NCBI GenBank assembly: GCA_035947475.1
Contig: DASZKB010000061.1
Location: forward strand, 1-27,482
DNA: 27,482 nucleotides
DNA from: Gaiellaceae bacterium
GTDB lineage: Bacteria; Actinomycetota; Thermoleophilia; Gaiellales; Gaiellaceae
Reading direction: 5' to 3'
Below, piece after piece: positions 1 to 27,482 of this stretch. The position numbers and the translations under genes are program-made. Numbering within the stretch: position 1 is the stretch's first letter; each line of letters begins with the position of its first letter. Under the pieces are notes generated by a model, which made no database searches, was not told the DNA's origin, and saw only the letters and a program-made list of their open reading frames with translations.

Positions 1-1293
1 CTCAGGCTGCTCCCCTTCGAAGGCCTAGGGCTTGCCGTAGTTCCGCTCGTCCAGCACCTGTTCGGCGTTCTCATGGCGGTCGTCCTTTACACGCTCCTTC
101 TCCGCCTCGGGGTCCGAACATGGCTCGCCGCGCTCGCGACCGCGCCCGTGCTCCTGGACTCGTTCCAGCTCAACCTCGAGCAGTACGTCCTCTCGGACAC
201 GTTCTTCCAGCTCCTCCTCGTCACCGGGTGCGCGCTCCTCCTGTGGCGCCGACCGCTCGGCCTCGCCCCGGCTGCGCTCGCGGGGCTCGTGTTCGCCGCG
301 GCCGCCCTCACCCGCACGGTCGGCCTCGCGGCGATCGTCCCGGTCGTGCTCACGGTGTTGTTCCTGCGCGCGGGGCCGTCCCGGGCGCTCGCCCTTCTCG
401 CGTCGTTCGCCCTTCCGCTCGTCGCCTACGCGGCGTGGTTCCACTCGTTCTTCGGCGTCTACGCCCTGAACGGGTACAGCGGACACGTGCTGTACGGGCG
501 CGTGGCGCCGTTCGCCGACTGCACTCAGTTCTCGGTCCCTGCGCGGGAACGCGTGCTTTGCCCAACGCAGCCCGTGGGCGAGCGGCCGTCGGAGAACGAG
601 TTCGTCTGGCGAAAACGGATCTCTCCGATCTACCGCCTGCGGCCGCCGGCCGAGATGACTCGTGACCGGCCCGTGTGGCTCGCGAGGTCGCAGATCGCGG
701 GCGACTTCGCGAGGCGGGTGATCGCGAACCAGCCGCTCGCGTACTCCCGCGCGGTCGGGTCCGATTTCCTCCACGGCTTCGCGCCCGCGCGGACCTCCGA
801 GCCCGGCGACGCGCCCGCCAGCAACTGGGAGTTCCACCTGACGTACCCGGTGTTCGAACCGAAGCTCAACGAAGCGTTCGACGCGCGGGTCGACCGGGAG
901 CTCGCCTCGTTCCTCCGCGCGTACCAGCGCTACGCGTACGCGCCCGGGCCGCTCCTCGGCGCTGCGCTGGTCGTCGGCCTCCTCGCCGCGGTCGGGCTCG
1001 GCCGCGCCAGGTACTCAGGCCTCCGGTCGGCGGCGTTCCTCTTCTCCTCGCTCGCGCTCATCCTCACGCTCGCGCCGGCAGCCGCGCTCGCTTTCTCCTG
1101 GCGCTATCAGCTGCCACAGCTCGTCCTCCTGCCGCCCGCCCTCGCACTCGGTCTCACGGCGCTGACGACGAGGACCGAGGATGACCGGGGGCGCGTTACG
1201 GCGTCGACGCGGCGTCGCGATCCAAGAGCGGCGCCGACCATGTCGGGGTCCGACCTGGCTGGCCGCGCCACGACGCGATCCGGGCGCCGCTAG
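1..1293 (+). CDS. Multi-pass membrane protein, GT-C-like (lipid-carrier-dependent glycosyltransferase family); 5' truncated by the window
   Basis: Frame is open from base 1 (LRLLPFEGLGLAVVPLVQHLFGVL-MAVV...), so the ATG at 73 is internal. Many hydrophobic helices, an acidic luminal-loop motif LLDSFQLNLEQYVLSDTFF, and a large extracellular loop before the last helices. Confidence 0.55.
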   Translation, partial: LRLLPFEGLGLAVVPLVQHLFGVLMAVVLYTLLLRLGVRTWLAALATAPVLLDSFQLNLEQYVLSDTFFQLLLVTGCALLLWRRPLGLAPAALAGLVFAAAALTRTVGLAAIVPVVLTVLFLRAGPSRALALLASFALPLVAYAAWFHSFFGVYALNGYSGHVLYGRVAPFADCTQFSVPARERVLCPTQPVGERPSENEFVWRKRISPIYRLRPPAEMTRDRPVWLARSQIAGDFARRVIANQPLAYSRAVGSDFLHGFAPARTSEPGDAPASNWEFHLTYPVFEPKLNEAFDARVDRELASFLRAYQRYAYAPGPLLGAALVVGLLAAVGLGRARYSGLRSAAFLFSSLALILTLAPAAALAFSWRYQLPQLVLLPPALALGLTALTTRTEDDRGRVTASTRRRDPRAAPTMSGSDLAGRATTRSGRR

Positions 1294-1328
1294 GACGTCG
1301 GTTTGCGCGGTCGCTATCCGGCCACCTT

Positions 1329-1337
1329 TGTTACCCT
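1329..1337 (+). promoter_or_regulatory. Candidate extended -10 promoter (TGnTACCCT) upstream of sqdB
   Basis: TG-T-TACCCT in a short intergenic gap. TANNNT hexamers are rare in this GC-rich DNA. GGAGG RBS at 1387-1391. Confidence 0.4.
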
Positions 1338-1397
1338 GCCGCGTCTGGGCAGGGGGAAATCGCGCGTGCGCGCGCGTCGTTACTTCGGAGGTTGGGT

Positions 1398-2681
1398 TTG
1401 CGAGTCTTGATTTTGGGCGGAGACGGGTTTTGTGGATGGCCAACGTCCCTTCACCTGTCCGCGCGCGACCACGAAGTCACGATCGTCGACAACTTCGCCC
1501 GCCGAAACGCCGACGTCGAGCTCGAGGCGTCGTCGCTCACGCCGATCGCCCCGCTCGGCACGAGGCTCGCTGCCTGGCGGGAGCTGACCGGGCGCGAGAT
1601 CGGATTCCACCGGCTGAACGTGGCCGAGGACTTCGACCGCCTCGTCACTCTCCTCGCCGATCTGCAGCCCGAGGCAATCGTTCACTTCGCCGAGCAACGG
1701 GCGGCGCCGTACTCCATGAAGAGCGCGTGGCACAAGCGTTACACCGTGGACAACAACGTGAACGCCACGCACAACCTCCTCGCGGCGATCGTCGAGTCAG
1801 GCGTCGATGCGCACGTCGTCCACCTCGGGACCATGGGCGTGTACGGGTACGGCGCGGCTCCCGGCGTGAGGATTCCCGAGGGCTATCTGCGCGTGAAGAT
1901 CGAGGCCGAGGACGGAACCGAGGTCGAGCAGGAGATCCTGTACCCGGCGAACGCCGGGAGCGTCTACCACATGACGAAGACGCTCGACCAGCTTCTCTTC
2001 GCCTTCTACAACAGAAACGACGGCGTCCGGGTCACGGATCTCCATCAGGGGGTCGTGTGGGGCACGCAGACGGCCGAGACCCGCCAGGACGACCGGCTCA
2101 TCAACCGGTTCGACTACGACGGCGACTACGGAACGGTGCTCAACCGCTTCCTGATGCAGGCGGCGATCGGCTACCCGCTCACCGTCCACGGAACGGGCGG
2201 GCAGACGCGCGCGTTCATCCACATCCAGGACACGGTGCGCTGCATCGAGCTCGCCGTCGAGCACCCGCCTGAGCCCGACCAGCGGGTGCGGATCTTCAAC
2301 CAGATGACCGAGGCGCACCGCCTGCTCGACCTTGCCGAGCTCGTAGCGCGGCTGACCGGCGCGAAGATCGACTTCGTCGAGAACCCGCGGAACGAGGCCA
2401 GCGAGAACGAGCTGCTCGTGGACAACGGCCAGCTGCTCGCGCTCGGGCTCGACCCGATCACGCTCGAGGAGGGCCTTCTGCGCGAGGTGACCGAGATCGC
2501 GGAGAGGTACGCGCACCGTTGCGACACCGACAAGATCCCGTGCCGGTCGTTCTGGAGGCGACGCGTGGACGGGCGTGCGGCTGCCTCGGCGCCGACGGCC
2601 GCGCCCGCGCAGAGCGCGAACGGAGACGCCGGTGAGGCGTCGCCGGCGATCGCCGCCGAGTTCTCGTCGGTCGCACGCTAG
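1398..2681 (+). CDS. sqdB: UDP-sulfoquinovose synthase (SqdB/SQD1/Agl3 family)
   Basis: Diagnostic motifs GGDGFCGWPTSLHLS, HFAEQRAAPYSM, HLGTMGVYGY, YHMTKTLDQ, TDLHQGVVWG, NRFDYDGDYGTVLNRF and YPLTVHGTGGQTRAFIHI. TTG start at 1398 lies 6 nt after GGAGG. Confidence 0.93.
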   Translation: MRVLILGGDGFCGWPTSLHLSARDHEVTIVDNFARRNADVELEASSLTPIAPLGTRLAAWRELTGREIGFHRLNVAEDFDRLVTLLADLQPEAIVHFAEQRAAPYSMKSAWHKRYTVDNNVNATHNLLAAIVESGVDAHVVHLGTMGVYGYGAAPGVRIPEGYLRVKIEAEDGTEVEQEILYPANAGSVYHMTKTLDQLLFAFYNRNDGVRVTDLHQGVVWGTQTAETRQDDRLINRFDYDGDYGTVLNRFLMQAAIGYPLTVHGTGGQTRAFIHIQDTVRCIELAVEHPPEPDQRVRIFNQMTEAHRLLDLAELVARLTGAKIDFVENPRNEASENELLVDNGQLLALGLDPITLEEGLLREVTEIAERYAHRCDTDKIPCRSFWRRRVDGRAAASAPTAAPAQSANGDAGEASPAIAAEFSSVAR

Positions 2682-2704
2682 CGGGCGCGCTTCAGCGGAC
2701 CGAG

Positions 2705-3670
2705 ATTCCCGACCACGTCCTCGTCACCGGCGGCTGCGGCTTCGTGGGCGCCAATCTGATCCCGAAGCTCCTCGCGCGCGGCCTCACCGTTCGCGTGCTC
2801 GACAACCTCTCGCGCGGGAGTCGCGAGAACCTGGAGGGGCTCGAGGTCGAGATCGTCGAGGCGGACGTCCGCGACTCCGAAGCGGTCGCTCGCGCGCTCG
2901 CCGGGGTCGGCACCGTCGTCCATCTGGCCGCGTACGGGTCGGTCGCGGAATCCGTCGACGAACCGCTCGAGAACTTCGACGTGAACGTTCGGGGGACGGT
3001 CGTCCTGCTCGCCGCGTGCGCCCGCGCCGAAGTGGCGAGCTTCGTGTTCGCCTCGACGGGGGGCGCGCTCGTCGGAAACGCGACGCCGCCCATCGACGAG
3101 ACCACCCTGCCCTGGCCGATCTCGCCGTACGGCGCGAGCAAGCTATGCGGAGAGGCCTACTGCCACGCGTTCGCGGGCTCGCTGGGCCTTCGGACCGTCG
3201 CCTTGCGCTTCGCGAACGTGTACGGCCCGTTCTCGCAGCACAAGCGGGGCGCGGTCACGAACTTCGTGAGGAGCGCGCTTCGCGGCGAGCCGCTCGTCAT
3301 CTACGGCGACGGGCAGGCGTCTCGCGACTTCCTCTACGTCGACGACCTCTGCGACGGGATCTGCGCAGCGCTCGACGCGCCGGTCGACGACGAGGTCGTT
3401 CACCTCGCGTCCGGGAGCGAGACGACGATTGCCCAATTGGCGCGCCTGATCCTCGAGCTGACCGGAGCGGCCGAGACGCCGATCCGCTACGAGCCACGTC
3501 GGCGCGGCGAGGTCGAACGCAACTTCGCGAAGACCGACCGTGCCGCCGCCCTCCTCGGCTTCCGCCCCGTGCATTCGCTGAGAGACGGGCTTCGAAAGAC
3601 GATCGACTGGTACGTCGAGCGCGACCGCCCTCAGCGGGCGGGGACGTCGGCGACGCACAGCACCGACTGA
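2705..3670 (+). CDS. NAD-dependent NDP-sugar epimerase/dehydratase (extended SDR, UDP-glucose 4-epimerase-like); start codon uncertain
   Basis: HVLVTGGCGFVGANL Rossmann motif, ASTGGA, YGASK catalytic YxxxK, FANVYGP, GDGQASRDFLYVDD. The Rossmann motif begins upstream of the first canonical start (2744). ATT at 2705 is the best in-frame candidate start. Confidence 0.82.
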   Translation: MPDHVLVTGGCGFVGANLIPKLLARGLTVRVLDNLSRGSRENLEGLEVEIVEADVRDSEAVARALAGVGTVVHLAAYGSVAESVDEPLENFDVNVRGTVVLLAACARAEVASFVFASTGGALVGNATPPIDETTLPWPISPYGASKLCGEAYCHAFAGSLGLRTVALRFANVYGPFSQHKRGAVTNFVRSALRGEPLVIYGDGQASRDFLYVDDLCDGICAALDAPVDDEVVHLASGSETTIAQLARLILELTGAAETPIRYEPRRRGEVERNFAKTDRAAALLGFRPVHSLRDGLRKTIDWYVERDRPQRAGTSATHSTD

Positions 3671-4347
3671 CCGAAGGGCGGGCGTACGGCCCTCTCGATC
3701 GTCCGGCCGGTCGGAATCACGACGTTGTCGTAGAGCCACACGAGGCGCGGGTCGGGCCGGCCGGCGCCGCCTCTCCGCACGGCGAGCCACCAGGCGAGCC
3801 CGCCCAGGAAGTTGACCGGGCGGACGTCGAGGACTCGGAGCCCTGCTCGCTCGACGGCGGCTCGCATCGTCCGGGGCGTATACCGGCGGACGTGCCCGAC
3901 CTTGCGGTCGAAGTCCCCGTACAGGCGCATGTAGGCCGGAACCCACAGGATCAGCCGCCCGCCGGGCGTCAGGACGGCGGCGAGGTCCCGAAGCGCCTGC
4001 ACGTCGTCCTCGATGTGCTCCACCACGTTCATGGCGACGACGGACTCGACGGGGTCGCCGATCTCGACCCGGCCGGGGAGGCGCACCTCGACGACCTCGA
4101 CGTCGGGGCGGTCGGCGTACCGCTCGCGCAGCCGCCCCAGGCACTCCTCGTCGGCGTCGCTCAGGACGAGGCGATCGCGCCCGCTCGCGGCGAGCTTCTC
4201 GGAGAAGTACCCCATCCCCGAGCCGACCTCGAGCACGGAGCGGCCGAGGTACGGCGCCACGAGGTCGTACTCCCACTGGCGGTACCGCGGCGCCGCCGTC
4301 GCACCGAAGGCGTACTCACATGCGGGCGCGGCCCCCGGACCCGTCAA
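3631..4347 (-). CDS. Class I SAM-dependent methyltransferase
   Basis: VLEVGSGMG motif I, NVVEHIEDD, LTPGGRLILWVPA, GHVRRY. TTG start at 4347 overlaps the ABC ATPase stop (TTGA) and follows GGAGGA. The ORF-track start at 4428 lies inside the ATPase gene. Confidence 0.82.
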   Translation of the reverse strand: MTGPGAAPACEYAFGATAAPRYRQWEYDLVAPYLGRSVLEVGSGMGYFSEKLAASGRDRLVLSDADEECLGRLRERYADRPDVEVVEVRLPGRVEIGDPVESVVAMNVVEHIEDDVQALRDLAAVLTPGGRLILWVPAYMRLYGDFDRKVGHVRRYTPRTMRAAVERAGLRVLDVRPVNFLGGLAWWLAVRRGGAGRPDPRLVWLYDNVVIPTGRTIERAVRPPFGQSVLCVADVPAR

Positions 4348-5147
4348 CCTTCCTCCAGCGCGACCTCGCTCTCGCCGACGTCGAGGAAGCGCGTGTAGGC
4401 GTTGACGACGGTCGCGGAGTCGTCCCACATCGAGACCTGCCCCTTGTGCATCCAGACCGCCTCGGTACAGAGCTCGCGGACGCTCCGGAGGGCGTGGCTC
4501 ACGATGACGATCGTCCGAGACTCGCTGCAGAGCTCGCGCATCTTGTCGAACGACTTCCGCTTGAAGCGCGCGTCGCCGACCGAGAGGGCCTCGTCGATGA
4601 GGAGGATGTCCGGTTCCATGTGCACGGCCACCGAGAAGGCAAGCCGGCCGTACATCCCCGACGAGTACGTCCGCATCGGGAGCTCCATGAAGTCGCCCAG
4701 CTCGGCGAAGGCCGCGATCTCGTCGTAGCGGGCCTCGATCTGGTCGCGCGTGAACCCGGCCGCGAGGCCGCCGAGCACCACGTTCTCGCGACCGGTCAGC
4801 CTCCCGTTGAACCCGACGCCGAGCGCGAGCAGCGTGCTCACGCGGCCGTTCACCTCGACGCGTCCGTGGGTCGGCGGCAGGATCCCGGCGATCGTCCGCA
4901 TGAGCGTCGACTTGCCGGCGCCGTTCATGCCCACGACGCCGAGCACCGTGCCGTGCGGGACCGCGAACGAGACGTCCCGGAGGGCCTCCACCTCGCGGAC
5001 GACCCGGCGCCGGCGCTTGAGCTGCGCGAGCCGTCGCTTCAGCGTCGGTCTCCGCTCGTACGTCGTTCGGTAGGTGACCGAGACGTGCTCGACGCTGATC
5101 GCGCGCGCGTCCGCGGCGAGCTCGCTCGCGTGACGTTCGAGCGCCAT
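4344..5147 (-). CDS. Polysaccharide/teichoic acid ABC exporter ATP-binding subunit (Wzt/TagH-like), with no C-terminal carbohydrate-binding domain
   Basis: Walker A GMNGAGKST, GVGFNGRLTGRENV, signature YSSGMYGRLAF, Walker B ILLIDEALSVGD, H-loop IVSH. Probable start is ATG 5147, 10 nt after the permease stop. Confidence 0.92.
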   Translation of the reverse strand: MALERHASELAADARAISVEHVSVTYRTTYERRPTLKRRLAQLKRRRRVVREVEALRDVSFAVPHGTVLGVVGMNGAGKSTLMRTIAGILPPTHGRVEVNGRVSTLLALGVGFNGRLTGRENVVLGGLAAGFTRDQIEARYDEIAAFAELGDFMELPMRTYSSGMYGRLAFSVAVHMEPDILLIDEALSVGDARFKRKSFDKMRELCSESRTIVIVSHALRSVRELCTEAVWMHKGQVSMWDDSATVVNAYTRFLDVGESEVALEEG

Positions 5148-5157
5148 CGCGCCGCTG

Positions 5158-6036
5158 TCAGAGGCGAACGGCAAACTCTCGCTCCCTCGAGACGAAGAAG
5201 AGCGACCCGACGACGAACGCTGCGGCCGCCCACGCCAGGCCGCCGGCGAGGAAGGCGGGGCTCGGGGCCGCGCCCTGGTTCAGGACGTCGCTCCACGAGG
5301 CGAGCATCGGATAGAGCGGGTTCGCGGCCATGACCGCCGAGAAGCTCTCGGGGACGTCCTGGGCGTAGTAGAGGATCGGAGACGCATACAGCCACAGGCG
5401 GGTCGAGAACGGAAGGAACGACCGGAGGTCGCGGAAGTAGACCTGCGTGGCGGCGAGAAGCATCGTGATCCCGGAGGCGAACACCACGAGGAGCGCCACG
5501 ATCGGGATCGCCCAGAGCAGATGGAGGCCGACGGGAAGCCCCACGATCGCGTGGGCGACGGCGTACACGGCCAGCATCGGGACGAAGCGCATGAACGCCG
5601 TCATCACGGAGGCGAGCGGCAAGAGCGTGCGGGGGAACGCGATGTTGAGGATGAGCCTTCCGCCGCCGACGACCGAGCGCGCGCCGTGCGTGACCGACCC
5701 GGCGACGAACCGGAAAGCGAAGAGCGCCGCCATCAGGTGGAGGAGGAACGTCGGGCCCCGCGTGTCGCCGCGGATGATGCCCACGAGCACGAAATAGGCG
5801 AACACGAGAAGAAGCGGGTTGATGACGAGCCAGAGCTGCCCGAAGAGCGTGTTGTAGTGCTGCTTGCGGAGGTTCGTCCGAGCCAGCTCGACCGCGAACT
5901 CGCGCCGCTGCCAGACGGTCTGTAGATACGGCCAAAGCGGCGGGAGGCCGATGCGGTGCGGCTCGTAGACGTGCCGTTCGGAGAACTCGTCGTCGACGGG
6001 GCGGCGCTCGCTCCGCGTGTCGGTGACAGCGCTCAT
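5158..6036 (-). CDS. ABC-2 polysaccharide/teichoic acid exporter permease (Wzm/TagG-like)
   Basis: LRKQHYNTLFGQLWLVINPLL, FPRTLLPL, VYFRDLRSFLP, LYASPILY, ANPLYPML. About six TM segments, adjacent to the ATPase. Confidence 0.92.
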   Translation of the reverse strand: MSAVTDTRSERRPVDDEFSERHVYEPHRIGLPPLWPYLQTVWQRREFAVELARTNLRKQHYNTLFGQLWLVINPLLLVFAYFVLVGIIRGDTRGPTFLLHLMAALFAFRFVAGSVTHGARSVVGGGRLILNIAFPRTLLPLASVMTAFMRFVPMLAVYAVAHAIVGLPVGLHLLWAIPIVALLVVFASGITMLLAATQVYFRDLRSFLPFSTRLWLYASPILYYAQDVPESFSAVMAANPLYPMLASWSDVLNQGAAPSPAFLAGGLAWAAAAFVVGSLFFVSREREFAVRL

Positions 6037-6084: not shown

Positions 6085-6092
6085 ACGAGAGC

Positions 6093-16492: not shown

Positions 16493-16596
16493 GGCTGATG
16501 CGCGGTCTCCCACGGACGTCGACAGGTTCGTCGCGGGGTCAGGATAGTCGCGCGGAGCGGTCGCCCCGAGGCGGCGGAGGCCCGGCGGCGCTCGGA

Positions 16597-19798: not shown

Positions 19799-19805
19799 GG
19801 CGGCG

Positions 19806-19811
19806 AGGCTA
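19806..19811 (-). promoter_or_regulatory. Candidate -10 (TAGCCT) 7 nt before GTG 19798; leaderless
   Basis: One of two back-to-back TANNNT hexamers in a 54-bp divergent gap. Confidence 0.45.
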
Positions 19812-19840
19812 CCAGCGGGATTGCGCCCGAGCCGCGGCGG

Positions 19841-22239: not shown

Positions 22240-22265
22240 CGCCTCTATCGTTTACGCGGCTCCCG

Positions 22266-23498
22266 GTGAGGGTCCTCTACTTCGATCCCAAGTTCCTGAC
22301 GCCGCGCCACTCGGCGCCGACGCGCGCGTACTCGCTGGCGCGCCATCTCGTGGAGCGGGGACACAGCGTCACGATGGTCGCGCGGAACCCGAGCTGGCTG
22401 GACGTGTCCGCGAACGGGCGTCGGCGCAGCCCCGTCCTCCGCGAGCGCGTGGACGGCATCGACGTCCTCTGGACGAAGATTCCGTACGACCAGAGCTTCT
22501 CGAAGCGGAAGCGGCTCTTCTCCTACGGGACGTACGCGGCCGTTGCGAGCGTCGTCGCCGCGGGAGCCGCGCGCCCGGACGTCGTCTACGCCTCGTCGAC
22601 GCCGCTGACCGCCGGTGTCCCCGGTGCTGTCGCTTCCCGCCTGAAGGGCGTCCCGTTCGCCTTCGAGCTCCAGGACCTTTGGCCCGCCGTTCCAGCCGCG
22701 CTCGGCTTCCTGAACGGGCGGCGCGAGCTCGCGGCGGCCGAATGGCTCGAGCGGCGGCTCTACGAGAGCGCCGACCGGCTCGTCGTCTGCAGCGAGACGG
22801 TGCTGGAGGACCTCGCCAGGCGCGGGATCCGGCGCGAGAAGCTCGTCCTCGTTCCGAACCTGAGCGACGTCGATCTCTTCCACCCCGACGCAAGCGACGA
22901 GGGGTGGCGAGCACGCCTGGGCCTGGCAGGGAAGCTGGTGGCCCTGTACTCGGGATCCATGGGGGTCGCGAACGGCGTGTACCAGCTCGCCGATGCGGCC
23001 GCGGCGCTTCGTCGCTCGGGCGACGACCGGGTCGCGATCGTGGCCGTGGGAAGCGGAAGCGAGCGGGCCGCCCTCGAGCGGCGCGTCGCGAGTGAGGGCC
23101 TCGACAACCTCGTGGTGCTCCAGCCGGTCGCCCGCGAGGAGATGCCCGGCCTGGTCGCTTCGTGCGACGTCACCCTCACCGTCTTCGCGCCGAACCCGAT
23201 CCTCGCGCTCAACTCCCCGAACAAGTTCTTCGACTCGCTCGCGGCCGGAAAGCCGGTCGTCGTGAACGTCGACGGCTGGCTGCGGCGGCTCGTCGAGGAG
23301 AACGAGGCGGGCGTGTACGTCCCCGCGGGCGACGCGGAGGGCCTTGCGAGCGGCCTGAGGTCGCTTGCCGAGCGCCCCGAGCACCTCGCCGAGATGGGGC
23401 GAAACGCCCGCGCGCTCGCGACCCGCGAGTTCGCGCGCGACCTTCTCGCGGACCGGCTCGCGGCCACTCTGGAGGACCTTGCCGCCCGCGGGCGCTGA
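22266..23498 (+). CDS. GT4 glycosyltransferase (WbuB-like)
   Basis: TRAYSLARHL, YASSTPL, FELQDLWP, YSGSMGVAN, NSPNKFFDSLAAGKPVV. GTG start at 22266. Confidence 0.88.
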   Translation: MRVLYFDPKFLTPRHSAPTRAYSLARHLVERGHSVTMVARNPSWLDVSANGRRRSPVLRERVDGIDVLWTKIPYDQSFSKRKRLFSYGTYAAVASVVAAGAARPDVVYASSTPLTAGVPGAVASRLKGVPFAFELQDLWPAVPAALGFLNGRRELAAAEWLERRLYESADRLVVCSETVLEDLARRGIRREKLVLVPNLSDVDLFHPDASDEGWRARLGLAGKLVALYSGSMGVANGVYQLADAAAALRRSGDDRVAIVAVGSGSERAALERRVASEGLDNLVVLQPVAREEMPGLVASCDVTLTVFAPNPILALNSPNKFFDSLAAGKPVVVNVDGWLRRLVEENEAGVYVPAGDAEGLASGLRSLAERPEHLAEMGRNARALATREFARDLLADRLAATLEDLAARGR

Positions 23499-23535
23499 GG
23501 AACGCGGGCCGCCAGGCGGTCGACGCTACGAGGCC

Positions 23536-24138
23536 GTGAAGCGGGCGTTCGACGTCGTCGCCGCGTCCGCGTCCCTCGTCGCGGTCGCGCCCGTCGTGGC
23601 GGCCGTCGCCGTCGCCATCCGGGTCGAGAGCCCCGGCCCGGTCATCCTCCGCCAGCCGCGCGTGGGCCGCGGCGGGCGCGATTTCCCGATGTTCAAGTTC
23701 CGCACGATGGTCGTCGACGCGCACACGCTCGGCGCGGGGTGGCTCGTCGCCGAGAACGATCCGCGCATCACGCGCGTGGGAGCGTTCCTGCGCAAGTGGT
23801 CGCTCGACGAGCTGCCACAGCTCTTGAACGTCCTGCGGGGGGACATGAGCATCGTCGGCCCGCGGCCGACGCTCCGCTACCAGGTCGAGCAGTACACGCC
23901 CTTTCAGCGTCGCCGTCTCGAGGTGCGGCCCGGCATCACCGGGTGGGCGCAGATCTCCGGGCGGAATGAGCTCACGTGGCCGGAGCGCATCGAGTTCGAC
24001 GTCTGGTACGTCGACCACCGCTCGCTCCGGCTCGACGCGAAGATCCTCGCCCGGACGCTTCCGGTCGTACTCCGCGCCACCCGCGTCTACAACGACGCCC
24101 GCGGCGACTGGGGCGAGCGCGGGGCGGAGGGAGTCTAG
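23536..24138 (+). CDS. Priming polyprenol-phosphate phosphoglycosyl transferase (Bac_transf; small monotopic PGT)
   Basis: VKRAFDV, FKFRTM, DPRITRVGAFLRKWSLDELPQLLNVLRGDMSIVGPRP, RPGITGWAQ, DVWYV. GTG 23536 gives about 200 aa. Confidence 0.92.
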   Translation: MKRAFDVVAASASLVAVAPVVAAVAVAIRVESPGPVILRQPRVGRGGRDFPMFKFRTMVVDAHTLGAGWLVAENDPRITRVGAFLRKWSLDELPQLLNVLRGDMSIVGPRPTLRYQVEQYTPFQRRRLEVRPGITGWAQISGRNELTWPERIEFDVWYVDHRSLRLDAKILARTLPVVLRATRVYNDARGDWGERGAEGV

Positions 24139-24150
24139 GCGGTCGCGAGC

Positions 24151-24184
24151 GGCGTGCCGGCCGTGCGTATCAGCACGGGACGCC
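24151..24184. terminator. Possible bidirectional hairpin between the convergent PGT and hydrolase genes
   Basis: CCGTGC-GTATCA-GCACGG inner stem (24161-24178) with outer GGCGT/ACGCC pairing. Confidence 0.3.
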
Positions 24185-25663
24185 GCCGCCGCAGCCGAAC
24201 GGGTGTCCCGGGCGGTCCCGCGTCGGTACCGCTCTGAACCCGAGGGCGGCGGCCCTGGTGCCGCTCGTCAGGCGCGCTCGGTACGTACGCCCGCGCGGGA
24301 CGCGGAGGGAAGCGCGAAAGATGCCGTGGCGGTTAGTCCTGAGCGTCCGAACCCTGCTCCAGCCGCCCGACGCTCGGCGCTGGACGATGACGCGGGTCGG
24401 GCTTCCGCACGACGGCCACGGAGGGCCGCACGGCGTCCGGCCCCAGACGTTGACGCGACGTCCCGACGGGAGCGCCACGAACGGGAACCGGAAGGCCCGG
24501 AGCGCCGGCTTGGCCCGATGGGCCGCGAACCCGCCCGCGCGCCTGTAGTAGAGCCCCGACTGGTAGCGGTCGGCGGGGAAGGGGTTGTCGGTGAGCTGGA
24601 GCCACGTCACGTGACTCACGCCGACTCGCCACATCCGGTACATCGCCTCGGCGACCCACCGGGCGTGGGTGCGCGCCGGCACGCCCGTCGGATCGGGCGG
24701 GCGCGTATCCCAACCGAACTCCCCGACCCAGAAGCGGATCGAACGTGGCGAGCGGATCTTCCCGTACCGGATGGCGGCGCGAAGGACCCGGCGCATCTCG
24801 GGCAGGTCGCCGAGCGAGACGTCGTCCCGCGCGAACGCGCGGTGCCTCGGGCCTCCCGACGTGTACGGGTGGTGGTCCCAGACGTCGAAGTTGCTCGCCG
24901 GGCACCCCGCCTTCGGCCTGAGACGCGTCGTCAGGCAGAGCATCGCGCGCATGAAGCGAAGCGGGCCGACATTCCCGGTCAGCGCGAGCCGCCCGCCGAA
25001 CGGCGCCGTCCCGCCCGCGATGATCACGTTCCCCGCGTTCACGCCTCGGATCGCGGCGCTGGAGGCGTTGACCATCGAGCGGTACCACCCCGGCGCGACG
25101 AGTCGGCCGCCCTCGGCCTGCGGCGTCACGTAGAGGCGGAGGTTCGGCTCGTTCCAGATCGTCCAGTGCCGGACGGCGGGGAGCACGTCCGAGTACGGAT
25201 CCGGCTGGAAGTTTCCGTTGTAGCGGCGCGCGGCGGCGCGCAGGAACTGCGCGAGAGCGGACGGGTCGGGCCGCGCGGTACCCGGGAAACGAGAATCGCC
25301 TCGGCCCTCCGCCCAGCGCGGGGCGTAGAGGACCATCACGATCGGCCTGAGGCCGTGAGCGCGAGCGAGGAGAATCTTCTCGTCGAAGGAGCGCCAGTCG
25401 TAGTGCGGCGACGCGGGATCGTCGGCGTTGAACCCCGCGGGACGCGGGTCGGGCGCGATGCTACGCCAGTGGAGGAGCAGCTTGACGTAAGGGGACCCGG
25501 CGCCTCTCACCCTCGCAAAGGCGAGATCGCGCTCGGGGCCGTCGAAGACGGCGGTCGGGTACTGGAGCACGCTCGTCTCGAGCGGGCGTGCGGCCGAGGC
25601 GAGAGCCGGCTGTAGGAGCGCGATCGCGGCGACGAGCGTCGAGAAGAGCACGACGCGGCGCAT
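24170..25663 (-). CDS. Secreted clan GH-A glycoside hydrolase (GH5/GH39-like TIM barrel) with a C-terminal beta domain
   Basis: Signal peptide MRRVVLFSTLVAAIALLQPALASA-A (ATG 25663), acid/base motif WTIWNEPN, HHPY, nucleophile motif FWVGEFGW. Confidence 0.72.
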   Translation of the reverse strand: MRRVVLFSTLVAAIALLQPALASAARPLETSVLQYPTAVFDGPERDLAFARVRGAGSPYVKLLLHWRSIAPDPRPAGFNADDPASPHYDWRSFDEKILLARAHGLRPIVMVLYAPRWAEGRGDSRFPGTARPDPSALAQFLRAAARRYNGNFQPDPYSDVLPAVRHWTIWNEPNLRLYVTPQAEGGRLVAPGWYRSMVNASSAAIRGVNAGNVIIAGGTAPFGGRLALTGNVGPLRFMRAMLCLTTRLRPKAGCPASNFDVWDHHPYTSGGPRHRAFARDDVSLGDLPEMRRVLRAAIRYGKIRSPRSIRFWVGEFGWDTRPPDPTGVPARTHARWVAEAMYRMWRVGVSHVTWLQLTDNPFPADRYQSGLYYRRAGGFAAHRAKPALRAFRFPFVALPSGRRVNVWGRTPCGPPWPSCGSPTRVIVQRRASGGWSRVRTLRTNRHGIFRASLRVPRGRTYRARLTSGTRAAALGFRAVPTRDRPGHPFGCGGGVPC

Positions 25664-25776
25664 CTCGGCGCGGAACGACGACACGGCACTCTTGTTCATC
25701 CGGGCGTTGTTCATCGGATCTCGCGAGGTGACCCCTCGCCCTCCGGTCGTGGCCGACGCCGAAGGAGCGGCCTCGG

Positions 25777-25782
25777 AGTATA
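25777..25782 (-). promoter_or_regulatory. Candidate -10 (TATACT) for the hydrolase gene
   Basis: Near-consensus hexamer in the divergent gap. A partner TACACT lies at 25854-25859 on the plus strand. Confidence 0.35.
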
Positions 25783-25890
25783 GAGAGCCGCCTGGACCGC
25801 GGCGACACTCCTTTCAGAACGCTAACGTCACGTCCGCCGGCCCGGAGCGGCACTACACTGACCGGCTGACGTACCGCCCCGCCGCCGCAC

Positions 25891-27482
25891 GTGACAATCG
25901 CCCCTGTCCGGCCCTCTGCTCCGCCCCCCGCCCCGCCGAGCACGAGGCGGCTTAGCCCGGCGGCGCTCGCTGCGTCCCTCGTCGTCGCCGCGGCCGTCTT
26001 CCTCGTCGCCTTCGACGGCGGCTCGTACGGCCTTCTCGACCGGAACTCGATCGCCATCGGGCTGTGGTGGACGATCGCGCTCACGGTCGGTCTCGGGATC
26101 CTCCCGCTCGAGCGCGTACCCCGCGCGGCACTCCTGACGGCCGTTCTTCTCGCGGCGCTCGCGGCGCTCACCCTTCTTTCGGCGCTGTGGGCGGACAGCG
26201 TCGAGGCGACGCTCAACGAGTTCAACCGGGTCGTGCTGTATCTGGGTGTCTTCGCGCTCGTCGTGCTCGCCTCGAAGCGCCTCACGGCCCCCCGCTGGAG
26301 CGACGGGATCGCGCTTGGGATCACCGCCGTCGCGCTCGTCGCCCTCGCCAGCCGCTTCCTGCCCGGCCTCTTTCCCGGGTCCCAGCTCCCGATCTTTCTC
26401 CCCACCGAGCGGACGCGGCTGTACTACCCGCTGAACTACTGGAACGGCCTGGCGATCCTCGTGGCGCTCGGGGCCCCGCTCCTCCTTCGCGCCGCCGTCG
26501 CCCCGGGAAGCCTCGTTCGCCGCGCAGTCGCGCTCGCCCCGTTCCCCGCGCTCGCAGCGGTCATCTACCTCACGTCCTCGCGGGGCGGAACCGCGGCGAC
26601 CGTGGCCGGCGTCGTCGCCTTTCTCGCGCTCACCGCGCACCGCTGGGCGGCGGCCGGTGCCGCGACGCTCGCGGCGCTCGGGTCGGCGGGCGCAGTCGTC
26701 GTTCTCCTCGACCGCCACGAGCTCGTGAACGGGCCGCTCGACTCGGCCGCGGCCGAGGCGCAGGGAAGGAGCGCCGCCGCTCTCGTGCTTCTCGCGTGCG
26801 TCCTCACCGGCGCGCTGTACGCCCTCGCCGTTCGCTACGTTCCGCGCGGGATTCGCGTCGGACCGCGCGTCGCCTGGGCCCTCGTCGCGGTCGTGGCCCT
26901 TCTCGCGCTCGCCGGAGTTGCGGCCGCCGACCCCGTGCAGCGGTTCGAGGAGTTCAAGCGCCCGCCTGAGGCCTCGCTCGGCGACGACCCCATCCGCGCC
27001 CATCTCACGAGCGCGAGCGGGAACGGCCGCTGGCAATGGTGGGCGGCCGCGGTCGACCAGTTCAGGAGCCACCCGCTCCTCGGCGACGGAGCGGGCTCGT
27101 ACGAGGCGTGGTGGGCGCGGCACGGAACGCTCCCGGGCTTCGTCCGCGACGCTCACTCGCTCTACCTCGAGATGCTCGGTGAGCTCGGGCTTCCAGGCTT
27201 CCTCCTCGTTCTCGCGATCGTCGGGTCGGGGTTCTTCGTCGGGATGCGCCGGCTCCGTCGTCACGACCCCGACGGGCGAACGGTTACGGCCGCCTTCCTC
27301 GCCGGCCTGCTCGCGTATGCGCTCGCCGCCGGGGTCGACTGGATGTGGGAGCTGACGGCAGTGTCGGTCGTCGGCGTCGCGTTCCTCGCCCTCTTGACGG
27401 GCGCCGCGACGGGGGTGCCAGGGCGGCGGCCGGCCGCGCGCTCGCGGGTGCGCCGGCGAACGATCGGCACGGTGCCCGCCGT
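25891..27482 (+). CDS. O-antigen ligase/Wzy_C family membrane protein; 3' truncated, and not in the ORF track
   Basis: I translated frame +1 from GTG 25891 to the window end with no stop. Motifs: RLYYPLNYWNGLA, YLTSSRGG, NGRWQWW..A..QFRSHPLLGDGAGSY, DAHSLYLEMLGELG, AAGVDWMWEL. Many TM helices. Confidence 0.82.
   Translation, partial: MTIAPVRPSAPPPAPPSTRRLSPAALAASLVVAAAVFLVAFDGGSYGLLDRNSIAIGLWWTIALTVGLGILPLERVPRAALLTAVLLAALAALTLLSALWADSVEATLNEFNRVVLYLGVFALVVLASKRLTAPRWSDGIALGITAVALVALASRFLPGLFPGSQLPIFLPTERTRLYYPLNYWNGLAILVALGAPLLLRAAVAPGSLVRRAVALAPFPALAAVIYLTSSRGGTAATVAGVVAFLALTAHRWAAAGAATLAALGSAGAVVVLLDRHELVNGPLDSAAAEAQGRSAAALVLLACVLTGALYALAVRYVPRGIRVGPRVAWALVAVVALLALAGVAAADPVQRFEEFKRPPEASLGDDPIRAHLTSASGNGRWQWWAAAVDQFRSHPLLGDGAGSYEAWWARHGTLPGFVRDAHSLYLEMLGELGLPGFLLVLAIVGSGFFVGMRRLRRHDPDGRTVTAAFLAGLLAYALAAGVDWMWELTAVSVVGVAFLALLTGAATGVPGRRPAARSRVRRRTIGTVPA

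What the first reader, a model, noticed from the sequence alone, without database searches (positions are those of the whole stretch)
1..27482. One envelope locus supplying three different anionic decorations (sulfonate, sulfate ester, phosphodiester) plus multiple O-methyl groups
Seen: sqdB, two unrelated sulfotransferase families, a G1P/cytidylyltransferase/CDP-alcohol phosphotransferase module, four methyltransferases, four soluble GTs and export machinery, all within 27 kb. Inference: the locus builds an unusually heavily modified polyanionic wall polymer, or two of them. I do not know of a characterised pathway that combines all of these.
Basis: partly seen in the sequence, partly recalled or inferred. 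Interest (0 to 1): 0.68.

Follow-up and report, generated by a model that had tools for sequence, protein, structure and literature searches.

The report
Mix-and-match sulfo/phospho surface-glycan gene island
An uncultured soil actinobacterium (order Solirubrobacterales) carries a real 27-kb surface-sugar gene island that combines enzymes for a sulfonated sugar, sulfate esters, glycerol-phosphate and methyl groups around one exporter; each enzyme set also occurs separately in relatives, so it is an unusually rich assembly of known cassettes and not a new kind of system.

Summary
The window is a whole contig of a 64%-complete Solirubrobacterales MAG and encodes:
- a genuine SqdB plus a 4-epimerase-like SDR;
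- two intact sulfotransferases (Sulfotransfer_3 and Sulfotransfer_2);
- a G1P-dehydrogenase / nucleotidyltransferase / DUF5941 / two CDP-alcohol-phosphotransferase operon fused to Wzm/Wzt;
- four methyltransferases, four soluble GTs, one priming phosphoglycosyltransferase (PGT), a GT-C, a flippase-like protein, a Wzy_C protein and a secreted glycoside hydrolase.

Relatives share a scaffold (PGT, flippase-like protein, Wzm/Wzt) into which the cassettes are slotted in different combinations:
- SqdB-SDR-MT-Wzt-Wzm plus ST2 (G146);
- G1P module plus ST2 (G016, G010, metagenome contig L130);
- SqdB plus ST3 plus G1P module (G041);
- SqdB plus two ST families (L192).

In relatives an APS-kinase gene sits 2-5 kb from ST2. 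L130 adds a secreted formylglycine sulfatase and a lipoprotein glycerophosphodiesterase.

All four cassettes together were seen only in this window. In 150 genomes of the order, no genome had both window-type SqdB and a G1PDH. Whether there is one polymer or several, and whether it is wall-attached, is untested.

The scan had already met the G1P cassette and the SqdB/GT-C cassette on other DNA. A 2026 Actinoplanes paper describes an EPS cluster with two sulfotransferase families plus a methyltransferase.

The parts
1..1293 (+). g01, GT-C-like polytopic membrane glycosyltransferase; 5' end cut by the contig end
   Evidence: Weak Pfam PMT hit and 9 TM-like segments. The full-length G028 orthologue (57% id) falls in PMT/PMT_2 Atlas clusters. 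Linked to SqdB in G028, L050, L057, L079 and G041.
1392..2681 (+). g02, SqdB, UDP-sulfoquinovose synthase
   Evidence: PDB SQD1 E 2e-94 with catalytic T/Y-H/K conserved. 64-84% id to SqdB of many phyla. NF041015 327 bits, below the 575 cut-off.
2705..3670 (+). g03, SDR closest to UDP-glucose 4-epimerase; probable ATT start at 2705 (the first canonical start, 2744, would remove the Rossmann motif)
   Evidence: PDB 4zrm E 5e-55. Upstream frame encodes VLVTGGCGFVG. ATT/ATC at the same place in G041 and G146. 71-74% id orthologues follow SqdB in G041 and G146.
3631..4347 (-). g04, class I SAM methyltransferase, last gene of the exporter operon
   Evidence: Methyltransf_23/12/25/11. 75-83% id orthologue between SDR and Wzt in G146.
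4344..5174 (-). g05, Wzt/TagH-type ABC ATPase with no C-terminal glycan-binding domain
   Evidence: NF010065 227 bits, galactan Wzt 204 bits.
5158..6036 (-). g06, Wzm/TagG-type ABC-2 permease
   Evidence: ABC2_membrane, NF050109; 6 TM-like segments.
6093..6872 (-). g07, small CDP-alcohol phosphotransferase with D..DG..AR...G...D...H (fourth Asp replaced by His)
   Evidence: PF01066. The His is conserved in 5 orthologous hits.
6844..7899 (-). g08, sn-glycerol-1-phosphate dehydrogenase homologue (EgsA/AraM type)
   Evidence: NF002022 250 bits. PDB G1PDH 4rgq E 3e-44, with the GD..SN, H..SH and HGEQ blocks conserved.
7887..8618 (-). g09, IPCT/GlmU-like nucleotidyltransferase (predicted CTP:glycerol-phosphate cytidylyltransferase)
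   Evidence: NTP_transf_3, NTP_transferase; IPCT part of NF041135; ATGA overlap with g10.
8615..9100 (-). g10, DUF5941 membrane protein
   Evidence: PF19365 E 7e-31; ATGA overlap with g11.
9097..10899 (-). g11, large CDP-alcohol phosphotransferase with an N-terminal degenerate nucleotidyltransferase-like domain
   Evidence: PF01066 48 bits and weak NTP_transf_3; complete signature motif at residue 410; closest PDB AF2299 and IPCT-DIPPS.
10922..12115 (-). g12, GT4 glycosyltransferase, paralogue of g19 (46% id)
   Evidence: Glycos_transf_1 E 7e-38.
12118..12807 (-). g13, small protein with weak TarS_C1 similarity; first gene of the minus-strand operon
   Evidence: PF18674 23 bits, below the cut-off.
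12923..14230 (+). g14, secreted protein: signal peptide, weak SNase-like domain, two lamin-tail domains
   Evidence: LTD E 1.5e-23; SNase 18 bits over the full profile; signal peptide; homologues in ST2 loci L133 and L146.
14264..14812 (+). g15, Methyltransf_11 methyltransferase
   Evidence: 58% id to its L130 counterpart over the whole length.
14856..15725 (+). g16, Sulfotransfer_3 sulfotransferase (ST3)
   Evidence: PF13469 99 bits; RSGST and RHP..S motifs; 56-59% id orthologues next to a g12-type GT4 in G041 and L139.
15722..16500 (-). g17, Methyltransf_24 methyltransferase (start approximate)
   Evidence: 67% id to L130 MT24.
16611..17609 (+). g18, Sulfotransfer_2 sulfotransferase (ST2)
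   Evidence: PF03567 73 bits; PKAACTS and RHPTERLWS motifs; invariant in alignment A1.
17641..18909 (+). g19, GT4 glycosyltransferase directly after ST2
   Evidence: 75% id orthologue after ST2 in L130.
18839..19822 (-). g20, LPG_synthase_TM / flippase-like membrane protein
   Evidence: PF03706 E 2.5e-40, TIGR00374; 57-59% id orthologues beside the PGT and Wzm in G146 and G016.
19853..21442 (+). g21, TarS/TarP-like GT2 with TarS linker domain
   Evidence: PF22181 E 3e-37, PF00535; PDB 8bz4, TarS 5tz8, TarP 6h1j.
21604..22218 (+). g22, CmcI / rhamnosyl O-methyltransferase family
   Evidence: PF04989 E 8e-56, NF045824 156 bits; 46% id orthologues adjacent to ST2 in G143 and G152.
22240..23498 (+). 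g23, GT4 glycosyltransferase (start approximate)
23365..24138 (+). g24, Bac_transf polyprenyl-phosphate phosphoglycosyltransferase (the only initiating enzyme in the window)
   Evidence: PF02397 E 7e-68; 57-75% id orthologues in all related loci.
24170..25714 (-). g25, secreted clan GH-A (cellulase-like) glycoside hydrolase
   Evidence: No Pfam hit; signal peptide and WNEPN motif; Atlas feature and structure neighbours are Cellulase/Glyco_hydro_cc families.
25891..27480 (+). g26, Wzy_C (O-antigen ligase/polymerase-like) membrane protein; 3' end cut by the contig end
   Evidence: PF04932 66 bits; 13 TM-like segments.

Best explanation
The window is a hypervariable surface-glycan biosynthesis island of an uncultured soil Solirubrobacterales bacterium.

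A scaffold is shared with relatives: a Bac_transf PGT that primes a polyprenyl-phosphate carrier, a flippase-like membrane protein and a Wzm/Wzt ABC exporter. This scaffold has collected four accessory cassettes that occur separately or in pairs in related loci:
1. SqdB plus a 4-epimerase-like SDR (UDP-sulfoquinovose supply), placed next to a GT-C.
2. A five-gene operon in which a G1P dehydrogenase and a nucleotidyltransferase are predicted to make CDP-glycerol, and two membrane CDP-alcohol phosphotransferases to transfer glycerophosphate.
3. ST3 with a g12-type GT4.
4. ST2 with a g19-type GT4, plus methyltransferases.

Most likely sequence of events:
- The glycan is built on the lipid carrier at the cytoplasmic face by the GT4 and GT2 enzymes.
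- It is O-sulfated from PAPS and O-methylated from SAM by the soluble tailoring enzymes.
- It receives glycerophosphate from CDP-glycerol at the membrane.
- It is exported by Wzm/Wzt.
- It is finished or attached outside the cell (GT-C, Wzy_C protein, an LCP enzyme encoded elsewhere).

Shown: gene identities, intact motifs, operon packing and recurrent synteny.
Inferred: substrates, the order of steps, that at least two of the anionic groups share one exported polymer, and that it is wall-linked.
For: Gene identities and motifs.

Operon packing: ten minus-strand genes g13 to g4 have ATGA or short overlaps, so a GT4, the G1P module, Wzm/Wzt and a methyltransferase form one unit.

Scaffold plus cassettes in relatives:
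- G010, G016 and G020 keep G1PDH, the small CDP-OH transferase and Wzm together. Wzt follows in G010 and G016, the nucleotidyltransferase is adjacent in G016 and G020, and the large CDP-OH transferase and DUF5941 were seen only in G020. The PGT is nearby in G010 and G016.
- G146 keeps PGT, LPG_TM, Wzm, Wzt, MT(g4), SDR and SqdB, plus ST2 4.5 kb away, without any G1P module.
- G041:C89 has GT4, ST3, MT and GT-C, then SqdB and SDR, then Wzt, Wzm, the G1P module and the PGT. Two TagF-type genes lie in the same cluster.
- L130 has the G1P operon continuous with MT24 and a sulfatase, then MT11, ST2, GT4(g19) and a GDPD.
- L139 has ST3, GT4 and ST2. L192 has SDR, SqdB, GT-C/GT2, an ST3-like gene and ST2.
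- G143 and G152 have CmcI-MT adjacent to ST2, with Wzm/Wzt and the PGT.

Sulfate activation: an APS-kinase gene lies 2-5 kb from ST2 in G146, G016 and G003, and a PAPS_reduct-family gene lies beside it in G146 and G016.

Single system in this MAG: the MAG has only one PGT, one Wzm and no paralogues of the cassettes, and it has an LCP gene on another contig.
Against: - The full combination was seen only here. In 150 genomes of the order, window-type SqdB occurs in 7, a G1PDH at E<=1e-40 in 4 (only G016 close to the window's), ST2 in 5 and only distant ST3 in 16. No genome has SqdB plus G1PDH.
- Most Solirubrobacterales SqdB genes are followed by an overlapping GT4, as in sulfolipid operons. SqdB could therefore serve a lipid.
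- No glycosyltransferase can be assigned to UDP-SQ.
- APS kinase and PAPS/APS reductase were not found in this MAG, though it is only 64% complete.
- The Wzy_C, GT-C and flippase-like genes could belong to a second, lipid-linked pathway.
- There are at least nine strand switches, so not all genes are co-transcribed.
- There are no chemical data and no cultured representative.
Confidence: 0.6

Rival explanations
1. The island encodes two or more separate products that only share a chromosomal neighbourhood. One would be an ABC-exported glycerophosphate-containing glycan (g4-g13, g24). Another would be a Wzy_C / GT-C / flippase-dependent glycosylation, for example protein O-glycosylation or side-chain addition, which receives the sulfo and methyl decorations.
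For: - There are at least nine strand switches.
- Wzy_C (g26), g13-g15, g17 and g25 have no counterparts in most related loci.
- GT-C enzymes use lipid-linked donors outside the cell. The Prauserella locus couples SqdB to a GT-C/GT2 fusion and GtrA, independently of any ABC exporter.
Against: - There is only one PGT and one exporter in the window and in the MAG.
- In L130, MT24 and a sulfatase are co-directional and almost contiguous with the G1P-Wzm operon, and ST2 is 4 kb away.
- SqdB-SDR is glued to MT-Wzt-Wzm in G146.
- The sulfotransferases and methyltransferases are soluble and lack signal peptides. This fits completion in the cytoplasm before ABC export.
Confidence: 0.28
2. SqdB here supplies the membrane sulfolipid SQDG, as in phototrophs and some Gram-positives, and its position beside the glycan genes is incidental. 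The locus then gives only sulfate and phosphodiester decorations.
For: - Five Solirubrobacterales SqdB loci carry an overlapping or adjacent downstream GT4 in the sqdB-sqdX manner.
- The literature treats SQ almost only as a lipid headgroup (PMC13436972).
- GT4 is the family of SqdX/SQD2, and three GT4s are in the window.
Against: - No SqdX orthologue and no orthologue of the SqdB-adjacent GT4 is in the window. The best MAG hit is only about 40% identical over part of its length.
- SqdB-SDR keeps its place against MT-Wzt-Wzm in G146, and lies in the same cluster in G041.
- SqdB is linked to GT-C genes in G028, L050, L057, L079, L192 and the window.
Confidence: 0.12
3. The sulfotransferases act on small molecules or lipids (as mycobacterial Stf enzymes or NodH/NoeE do) and not on the exported polymer.
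For: - ST3 has a weak NoeE match.
- Bacterial sulfotransferase substrates cannot be read from sequence.
Against: - Each ST is repeatedly adjacent to a GT4 of the g12/g19 type, and to Wzm/Wzt or PGT genes.
- A secreted formylglycine sulfatase sits in the same operon as the G1P/exporter genes in L130.
Confidence: 0.1
4. The contig is an assembly chimera that joins unrelated loci.
For: It is a short-read MAG contig.
Against: - Every junction between modules is reproduced in an independent assembly: SqdB-SDR | MT-Wzt-Wzm in G146; Wzm | G1P module in G010, G016, G020, G041 and L130; G1P module | MT24...ST2-GT4 in L130; ST3 | GT4 in G041 and L139.
- GC content is even.
- Eight runs from two studies hold 73-93% of the sampled words of 12-20 kb.
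Confidence: 0.03

Closest known systems
Actinoplanes missouriensis wps-1 exopolysaccharide cluster (PMC13390465, 2026)
   Same: An actinomycete glycan cluster with two sulfotransferases of different families, a SAM methyltransferase and a glycoside hydrolase. It is predicted to make a sulfated polysaccharide, and the sulfotransferase genes are needed for a phenotype.
   Different: It is Wzx/Wzy/Wzz-dependent, not Wzm/Wzt-dependent, and has no SqdB and no G1P/CDP-alcohol module. Sulfation is not chemically verified there either. I did not compare the sequences.
Classical wall teichoic acid pathway of Bacillota (TagO, TagD, TagB/TagF, TagGH, TarS)
   Same: A TagGH-like ABC exporter, a TarS/TarP-like GT2, a predicted CDP-glycerol supply and an LCP enzyme in the genome. 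The related cluster G041:C89 even has two TagF-type genes.
   Different: There is no TagF/TagB family gene in the window or MAG, and none in G146, G016, G010 or G003. There is no TagD-type cytidylyltransferase. Glycerophosphate is predicted to come from a G1P dehydrogenase and to be transferred by membrane CDP-alcohol phosphotransferases. The primer is a Bac_transf PGT, not TagO.
SqdB/SqdX (SQD1/SQD2) sulfolipid pathway and Sulfolobus Agl3 N-glycan sulfoquinovose
   Same: SqdB is a close orthologue (64-73% id to cyanobacterial SqdB, catalytic residues kept). As with Agl3, the sugar seems destined for a glycan and not a lipid.
   Different: There is no SqdX/SqdD partner. The neighbours are a GT-C, an epimerase-like SDR and a glycan exporter. 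SQ in a bacterial surface glycan has not been shown experimentally in the papers I could search.
IPCT/DIPPS and AF2299 CDP-alcohol phosphotransferases (PDB 4mnd, 4o6m)
   Same: These are the closest solved relatives of g11 and g9. They share the nucleotidyltransferase plus CDP-alcohol transferase logic with a soluble CDP-alcohol donor.
   Different: The similarity is at family level only (43 bits). Here the enzymes are coupled to a G1P dehydrogenase, DUF5941 and an exporter, and the second enzyme (g07) has His instead of the fourth Asp.
S-layer glycan (slg) clusters of Geobacillus/Paenibacillus (WsaP, Wzm/Wzt, WsaB, WsaE); from my own knowledge, not checked here
   Same: A Bac_transf primer, an ABC exporter, a Wzy_C-type transferase and O-methyltransferases in one locus. 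The glycan is completed in the cytoplasm.
   Different: Those glycans are neutral rhamnans with a methyl cap on a protein. No sulfo or phospho cassettes are involved, and no S-layer protein gene is seen here.
Gtr-type / PpgS-Rv3779-type extracytoplasmic glycosylation (polyprenyl-P sugar synthase, flippase, GT-C)
   Same: A GT-C lies next to SqdB. The Prauserella locus has a GT-C/GT2 fusion, GtrA and SqdB, and L130 has a PMT_2 GT-C next to a GT2.
   Different: No polyprenyl-phosphate GT2 or GtrA is seen in the window. The contig ends inside the GT-C gene, so one may lie beyond it.

Membership tests
UDP-sulfoquinovose synthase (SqdB/SQD1/Agl3) | Full-length similarity to SQD1, with the extended-SDR insertions | tested here: met
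   PDB 1i24 E 1.9e-94, query 2-390 against chain 11-394. 64-84% id to 80 SqdB loci including cyanobacteria.
UDP-sulfoquinovose synthase (SqdB/SQD1/Agl3) | Catalytic Thr, and Tyr-His...Lys (T145, Y182, H183, K186 of SQD1; numbering from my own knowledge) | tested here: met
   GTMGvYG and vYHmtKt align with the SQD1 motifs.
UDP-sulfoquinovose synthase (SqdB/SQD1/Agl3) | NCBIfam NF041015 equivalog cut-off (575 bits) | tested here: not met
   326.8 bits. Only 1 of 14 control genomes passes this cut-off, although 12 ring, so the cut-off appears clade-specific.
UDP-sulfoquinovose synthase (SqdB/SQD1/Agl3) | Sulfite supply (APS/PAPS reductase) in the genome | tested here: inconclusive
   PF01507 was not found in the 64%-complete MAG. 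It is present in 5 of 5 genomes searched: G146, G016, G143, G152 and G041.
PAPS-dependent sulfotransferases (Sulfotransfer_3, Sulfotransfer_2) | Pfam gathering score | tested here: met
   99.2 bits against 27, and 73.1 bits against 22.
PAPS-dependent sulfotransferases (Sulfotransfer_3, Sulfotransfer_2) | 5'-phosphosulfate-binding loop and 3'-phosphate-binding motif | tested here: met
   g16: IRSGST and LRHPVAIARS. g18: VPKAACTS and VRHPTERLWS. The g18 motifs are invariant in A1.
PAPS-dependent sulfotransferases (Sulfotransfer_3, Sulfotransfer_2) | PAPS synthesis (APS kinase) available | tested here: inconclusive
   Not found in the MAG. Present in 5 of 5 ST2-bearing relatives, and within 2-5 kb of ST2 in three of them.
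sn-Glycerol-1-phosphate dehydrogenase (EgsA/AraM) | NCBIfam NF002022 equivalog cut-off (413 bits) | tested here: not met
   249.9 bits over profile 6-338.
sn-Glycerol-1-phosphate dehydrogenase (EgsA/AraM) | Closest solved relatives are G1PDHs, with conserved metal- and substrate-site blocks | tested here: met
   4rgq, 4rfl and 5fb3 at E 1e-39 to 1e-44, well above glycerol dehydrogenases (1e-13). The GD..SN, H..SH and HGEQ blocks are conserved.
sn-Glycerol-1-phosphate dehydrogenase (EgsA/AraM) | Stereospecific DHAP to sn-G1P activity | not testable with these tools
   Needs an enzyme assay with chiral analysis.
CDP-alcohol phosphotransferase (PF01066) | Signature D-x2-D-G-x2-A-R-x8-G-x3-D-x3-D | tested here: met
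   g11: complete motif from residue 410.
CDP-alcohol phosphotransferase (PF01066) | The same signature in the second enzyme, g07 | tested here: not met
   The fourth Asp is His. The His is also present in G010, G016, G020 and G041 orthologues. The Pfam score is above the cut-off (34.4 against 22).
Classical wall teichoic acid pathway | TagB/TagF-type CDP-glycerol glycerophosphotransferase (PF04464) | tested here: not met
   No hit in the window's 26 proteins or in the MAG. None in G146, G016, G010 or G003. Two in the related cluster G041:C89.
Classical wall teichoic acid pathway | TagGH-type ABC exporter and TarS-type glycosyltransferase | tested here: met
   g05 scores 203-227 bits to TagH models, which is below their equivalog cut-offs. 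g21 has the TarS linker at E 3e-37 and matches PDB TarS and TarP.
ABC-transporter-dependent glycan assembly | Adjacent Wzm and Wzt, a polyprenyl-phosphate primer enzyme and cytoplasmic GTs, with no Wzx | tested here: met
   g05/g06 overlap. g24 is Bac_transf. There are four soluble GTs. No Wzx/MOP-family hit in any of the 26 proteins. The Wzy_C protein g26 is an unexplained extra.
GT-C glycosyltransferases | Polytopic membrane protein with PMT/PMT_2-type similarity | tested here: inconclusive
   PMT at 20.4 bits, below the 22.7 cut-off. Atlas neighbours carry PMT or PMT_2 on only 11-33% of members. No structure was predicted.

The most novel reading that the evidence does not exclude
All cassettes act on one Wzm/Wzt-exported wall polymer. 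This would be a 'sulfo-teichoic' glycopolymer that carries sulfoquinovose (C-sulfonate), O-sulfate esters and sn-glycerol-1-phosphate phosphodiesters together with O-methyl groups. The glycerophosphate would be supplied and transferred by a G1P-dehydrogenase / CDP-alcohol-phosphotransferase route, not by TagD/TagF. Such a polymer class, with three chemically different anionic groups, has not been described in any bacterium.
Probability: 0.25. Interest if true: 0.78.

Novelty: new variant of a known kind. Interest (0 to 1): 0.52.

Why it matters
Sulfated bacterial glycans are rarely documented outside cyanobacteria and a few symbionts and pathogens. Sulfoquinovose is known in bacteria only as a lipid headgroup. 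Glycerophosphate in wall polymers is thought to come from TagD/TagF or from phosphatidylglycerol.

This island and its relatives suggest that abundant, uncultured soil Actinomycetota (Thermoleophilia) tune their surface charge with interchangeable sulfonate, sulfate and phosphodiester cassettes. That could let them keep a polyanionic envelope when phosphorus or sulfur is scarce.

It would also make these bacteria an unrecognised source and sink of organosulfur (SQ, sulfate esters) in soil.

The comparative set assembled here (G146, G016, G041, L130, L139, L192) gives concrete gene pairs for biochemical tests.

Tried and rejected
- No RNA holder was listed for the 12-20 kb stretch, so nothing can be said about expression.
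- The first metagenome scan with the single ST2 protein found no relatives. The alignment-based scan worked.
- Two ORFs near cyanobacterial SqdB (L059, L071) that I first took for SqdX matched only themselves. The L110 ORF behaved as SqdX: about 44-51% id next to SqdB in six loci.
- No SqdX orthologue and no orthologue of the Solirubrobacterales SqdB-adjacent GT4 is among g12, g19 or g23, so no SQ-transferase could be named.
- APS kinase, the PAPS_reduct family and TagF-family searches of the own MAG were empty. At 64% completeness this shows nothing.
- The C-terminal 200 residues of g21 gave no family, and g13 gave only a below-cut-off TarS_C1 match, even at E <= 1.
- Literature searches for the G1P/CDP-alcohol module found only a synteny remark in Streptomyces (PMC13118837). 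Searches for sulfated Gram-positive wall polymers found only the Actinoplanes prediction.
- I did not run structure or complex predictions, because no claim here rests on protein-protein binding.

Full report
**What is there.** The window is 71% G+C. It is the whole of contig C61, the longest contig of a MAG of 1.37 Mb in 254 contigs, 64% complete. A third-position GC frame plot resolves 26 genes. Pfam and NCBIfam name them as follows:

| Gene | Assignment |
|---|---|
| g01 | GT-C-like membrane protein, 5' truncated |
| g02 | SqdB |
| g03 | SDR |
| g04 | methyltransferase |
| g05/g06 | Wzt/Wzm |
| g07 | small CDP-alcohol phosphotransferase |
| g08 | G1P-dehydrogenase homologue |
| g09 | nucleotidyltransferase |
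| g10 | DUF5941 |
| g11 | large CDP-alcohol phosphotransferase |
| g12 | GT4 |
| g13 | weak TarS_C1 match |
| g14 | secreted LTD protein |
| g15 | Methyltransf_11 |
| g16 | Sulfotransfer_3 |
| g17 | Methyltransf_24 |
| g18 | Sulfotransfer_2 |
| g19 | GT4 |
| g20 | LPG_synthase_TM flippase-like protein |
| g21 | GT2 with TarS linker |
| g22 | CmcI / rhamnosyl O-methyltransferase |
| g23 | GT4 |
| g24 | Bac_transf PGT |
| g25 | secreted hydrolase |
| g26 | Wzy_C, 3' truncated |

It understates the locus slightly, since there are two CDP-alcohol transferases, a GT-C, a primer enzyme and a hydrolase.

**Are the key enzymes real?**
- SqdB matches Arabidopsis SQD1 end to end (E 2e-94) with the catalytic Thr and Tyr-His...Lys in place. 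It is 64-73% identical to SqdB next to cyanobacterial and alphaproteobacterial genes and 74-84% identical to Solirubrobacterales copies. It fails NCBIfam's equivalog cut-off (327 against 575 bits), but so do all but one of the control genomes that ring.
- Both sulfotransferases keep the two PAPS-binding motifs. For ST2 these are invariant across family homologues.
- The G1PDH homologue is far closer to solved G1P dehydrogenases (E 1e-44) than to glycerol dehydrogenases (1e-13), and it keeps the conserved active-site blocks. It is below the equivalog cut-off (250 against 413).
- g11 has the complete CDP-alcohol signature. g07 has His at the fourth Asp position, and the same His is in all orthologues examined. 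It is therefore a distinct subfamily and not a decayed copy.
- g03 is closest to UDP-glucose 4-epimerases.
- All four methyltransferases are full-length relative to their orthologues.
- g25 has a signal peptide and a WNEPN motif, and its Atlas neighbours are cellulase-like clan GH-A proteins.

**Organisation.** Genes g13 to g4 lie on the minus strand with ATGA-type or short overlaps. So a GT4, the whole G1P module, Wzm/Wzt and a methyltransferase form one transcription unit. SqdB-SDR converge on its 3' end. The tailoring genes g15-g19 and the GT/PGT genes g21-g24 form several short units on both strands.

**Organism and distribution.** The closest SqdB loci are Solirubrobacteraceae, Thermoleophilaceae and 'Actinomycetota' MAGs. 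Two studies, one of them labelled soil, hold near-identical DNA.
- Among 24 genera of the same family, SqdB was found in 1 and a G1PDH in 4.
- In 150 genomes sampled across the order:
  - window-type SqdB (74-79% id) occurs in 7;
  - a G1PDH at E<=1e-40 occurs in 4, only one of them close to the window's;
  - ST2 (34-37% id) occurs in 5, all in the window's family;
  - only distant ST3 homologues (31-40% id) occur in 16, all in another family;
  - no genome has SqdB and G1PDH together.

**Why the cassettes nevertheless belong together.** The neighbourhoods tell a different story.
- G010, G016 and G020 keep G1PDH, the small CDP-OH transferase and Wzm together. Wzt follows in G010 and G016, the nucleotidyltransferase is adjacent in G016 and G020, and the large CDP-OH transferase and DUF5941 were seen only in G020. 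In G010 and G016 a g24-type PGT lies within about 10 kb and an ST2 homologue within 5-13 kb.
- G146 (same family) has PGT, LPG_TM, Wzm, Wzt, MT(g4, 75-83% id), SDR (74%) and SqdB (78%) in the window's order, plus ST2 4.5 kb away, but no G1P module.
- G041 contig C89 has GT4(g12-type), ST3 (58%), MT and GT-C, then GT-C, SqdB (79%) and SDR (71%), then Wzt, Wzm, the G1P module and the PGT. Two TagF-type glycerophosphotransferase genes lie in between. ST2 was not found in that genome.
- G143 and G152 have a CmcI-methyltransferase directly adjacent to ST2, with Wzm/Wzt, a GT4 and the PGT.
- Among metagenome ST2 loci, L130 reproduces Wzm, small CDP-OH transferase, G1PDH (83%), NTP, DUF5941, large CDP-OH transferase and MT24 (66%), then MT11 (57%), ST2 (66%) and GT4 g19 (75%). 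L139 has ST3 (59%), GT4 and ST2 (56%). L192 has SDR (70%), SqdB (77%), GT-C/GT2, a weak Sulfotransfer_3 and ST2.

Each junction of the window is thus seen independently elsewhere, which also argues against a chimeric assembly. The picture is a conserved scaffold (PGT, flippase-like protein, Wzm/Wzt) with interchangeable cassettes, much like O-antigen or teichoic-acid loci.

**Independent support for the predicted chemistry.**
- In G146, G016 and G003 an APS-kinase gene lies 2-5 kb from ST2, and in G146 and G016 a PAPS_reduct-family gene sits beside it. Sulfate activation is therefore part of this locus type. In this MAG those genes were not found, which at 64% completeness is uninformative.
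- In L130, the gene upstream of MT24 in the G1P-exporter operon is a secreted sulfatase with the canonical formylglycine signature. The gene after the g19-type GT4 is a lipoprotein-type glycerophosphodiester phosphodiesterase. These are extracellular turnover enzymes for exactly the two ester types predicted.
- The TagF-type genes inside the G041 cluster fit a CDP-glycerol product of the G1PDH/nucleotidyltransferase pair. The window's MAG and four relatives lack TagF-type genes. That leaves the CDP-alcohol phosphotransferases as the only candidate glycerophosphate transferases there.

**Where does sulfoquinovose go?**
- In five Solirubrobacterales loci SqdB is followed by an overlapping or adjacent GT4, the sulfolipid-operon pattern. 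None of the window's GT4s is an orthologue of that enzyme or of SqdX.
- In the window SqdB instead sits next to a GT-C. In G028 and L034 it sits next to a flippase-like protein (with the g01-type GT-C in G028). In Prauserella it sits next to a GT-C/GT2 fusion plus GtrA.
- This points to a glycan destination, either through a cytoplasmic GT4 or through a lipid-phosphate-SQ intermediate and the GT-C. The polyprenyl-phosphate GT2 needed for the second route is not in the window, which ends inside the GT-C gene.

**One polymer or several?**
- For one polymer: there is one PGT and one exporter in the window and the MAG; the tailoring enzymes are soluble; the operon links in L130 and G146 tie cassettes to the exporter.
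- For more than one product: the Wzy_C, GT-C and flippase-like genes; at least nine strand switches; the lack of counterparts for g13-g15, g17, g25 and g26 in most related loci.
- My estimates: about 0.6 that at least two of the anionic groups decorate the Wzm/Wzt-exported glycan, and about 0.25 that all three do.

**Comparison with what is known.**
- The closest published case is the Actinoplanes wps-1 cluster: two sulfotransferase families, a methyltransferase and GH26, Wzx/Wzy-dependent, with sulfation unverified (PMC13390465).
- The exporter, the TarS-like GT and the predicted CDP-glycerol recall wall teichoic acid synthesis, but the defining TagF/TagB enzyme is missing.
- SqdB is a true member of its family but in a non-lipid context. 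The only documented glycan use of SQ that I know of is archaeal (Agl3).
- A Streptomyces pan-genome paper notes the synteny of araM, tagG/tagH, a nucleotidyltransferase and a CDP-alcohol transferase, without functional data (PMC13118837).
- Earlier notes of this scan report the G1P cassette and the SqdB/GT-C cassette repeatedly on other DNA, and SqdB with sulfotransferases in Binatota and Chloroflexota. I used these as leads only.

**Verdict.** The island is real and unusually rich, a new variant of a known kind of system (variable surface-glycan locus). Its value lies in showing that sulfonate, sulfate-ester and glycerophosphate cassettes are exchanged on a common scaffold in soil Thermoleophilia, and in providing testable gene sets. 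The claim of a single triply anionic polymer remains a hypothesis.

Noticed in passing
window 2681-2744; G041:C89 about 33800; G146:C5 about 351500: The SDR after SqdB has no ATG/GTG/TTG between the SqdB stop and its Rossmann motif. An in-frame ATT (window, G041) or ATC (G146) sits five residues before VLVTG. This suggests a conserved rare start codon or translational coupling.
   Followed up: partly
window 6093-6872 (g07): The small CDP-alcohol phosphotransferase has His instead of the fourth Asp of the family signature. The His is conserved in orthologues from G010, G016, G020 and G041. This may be a distinct catalytic subfamily.
   Followed up: partly
window 12923-14230 (g14); L133 8300-9868; L146 5289-6701; L036 about 3735: A secreted protein with a weak SNase-like domain and two lamin-tail domains recurs beside ST2/GT4 genes in other contigs. 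It occupies roughly the position that a GDPD has in L130, so it could be a phosphodiesterase or binder for the polyanionic product.
   Followed up: partly
L130 6392-8119 and 12238-13182: A secreted formylglycine sulfatase (CPSRSSILTGR signature) and a lipoprotein-type glycerophosphodiesterase are embedded in the closest syntenic metagenome locus.
   Followed up: yes
G146:C5 360387-361501; G016:C2 1091310-1092418; G003:C48 45726-46178: An APS-kinase gene lies 2-5 kb from the ST2 homologue in the glycan locus of three relatives. An adjacent PAPS_reduct-family gene was found in G146 and G016; G003 was not searched for that family.
   Followed up: yes
G041:C89 19020-20108 and 23626-24750: Two TagF/TagB-type glycerophosphotransferase genes sit inside the cluster that also has SqdB, ST3 and the G1P module. 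This is the only related locus with classical teichoic-acid polymerase-type genes.
   Followed up: no
order-wide, e.g. G028:C6 760648-761802, G032:C5 152745-153944: A second SqdB-like paralogue (41-47% id to the window's) is nearly universal in one sister family: together with the window-type copy, 43 of 45 genomes match. It often lies in very long open frames. Its function and context were not examined.
   Followed up: no
G016:C2 1072144-1073206; G146:C5 about 344000-350500: In G016 the G1PDH gene is split over two frames. In G146 the PGT and MT(g4) matches are split into two pieces and the Wzm and Wzt matches cover only part of the query. These are either decaying loci or indel errors of long-read assemblies.
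   Followed up: no
window 10922-12115 and 17641-18909: g12 and g19 are paralogous GT4s (46% id). GT4s of this type are repeatedly adjacent to a sulfotransferase: ST2-g19 in the window and L130, ST3-GT4 in G041 and L139. This suggests GT/ST pairs that add and then sulfate one sugar.
   Followed up: partly
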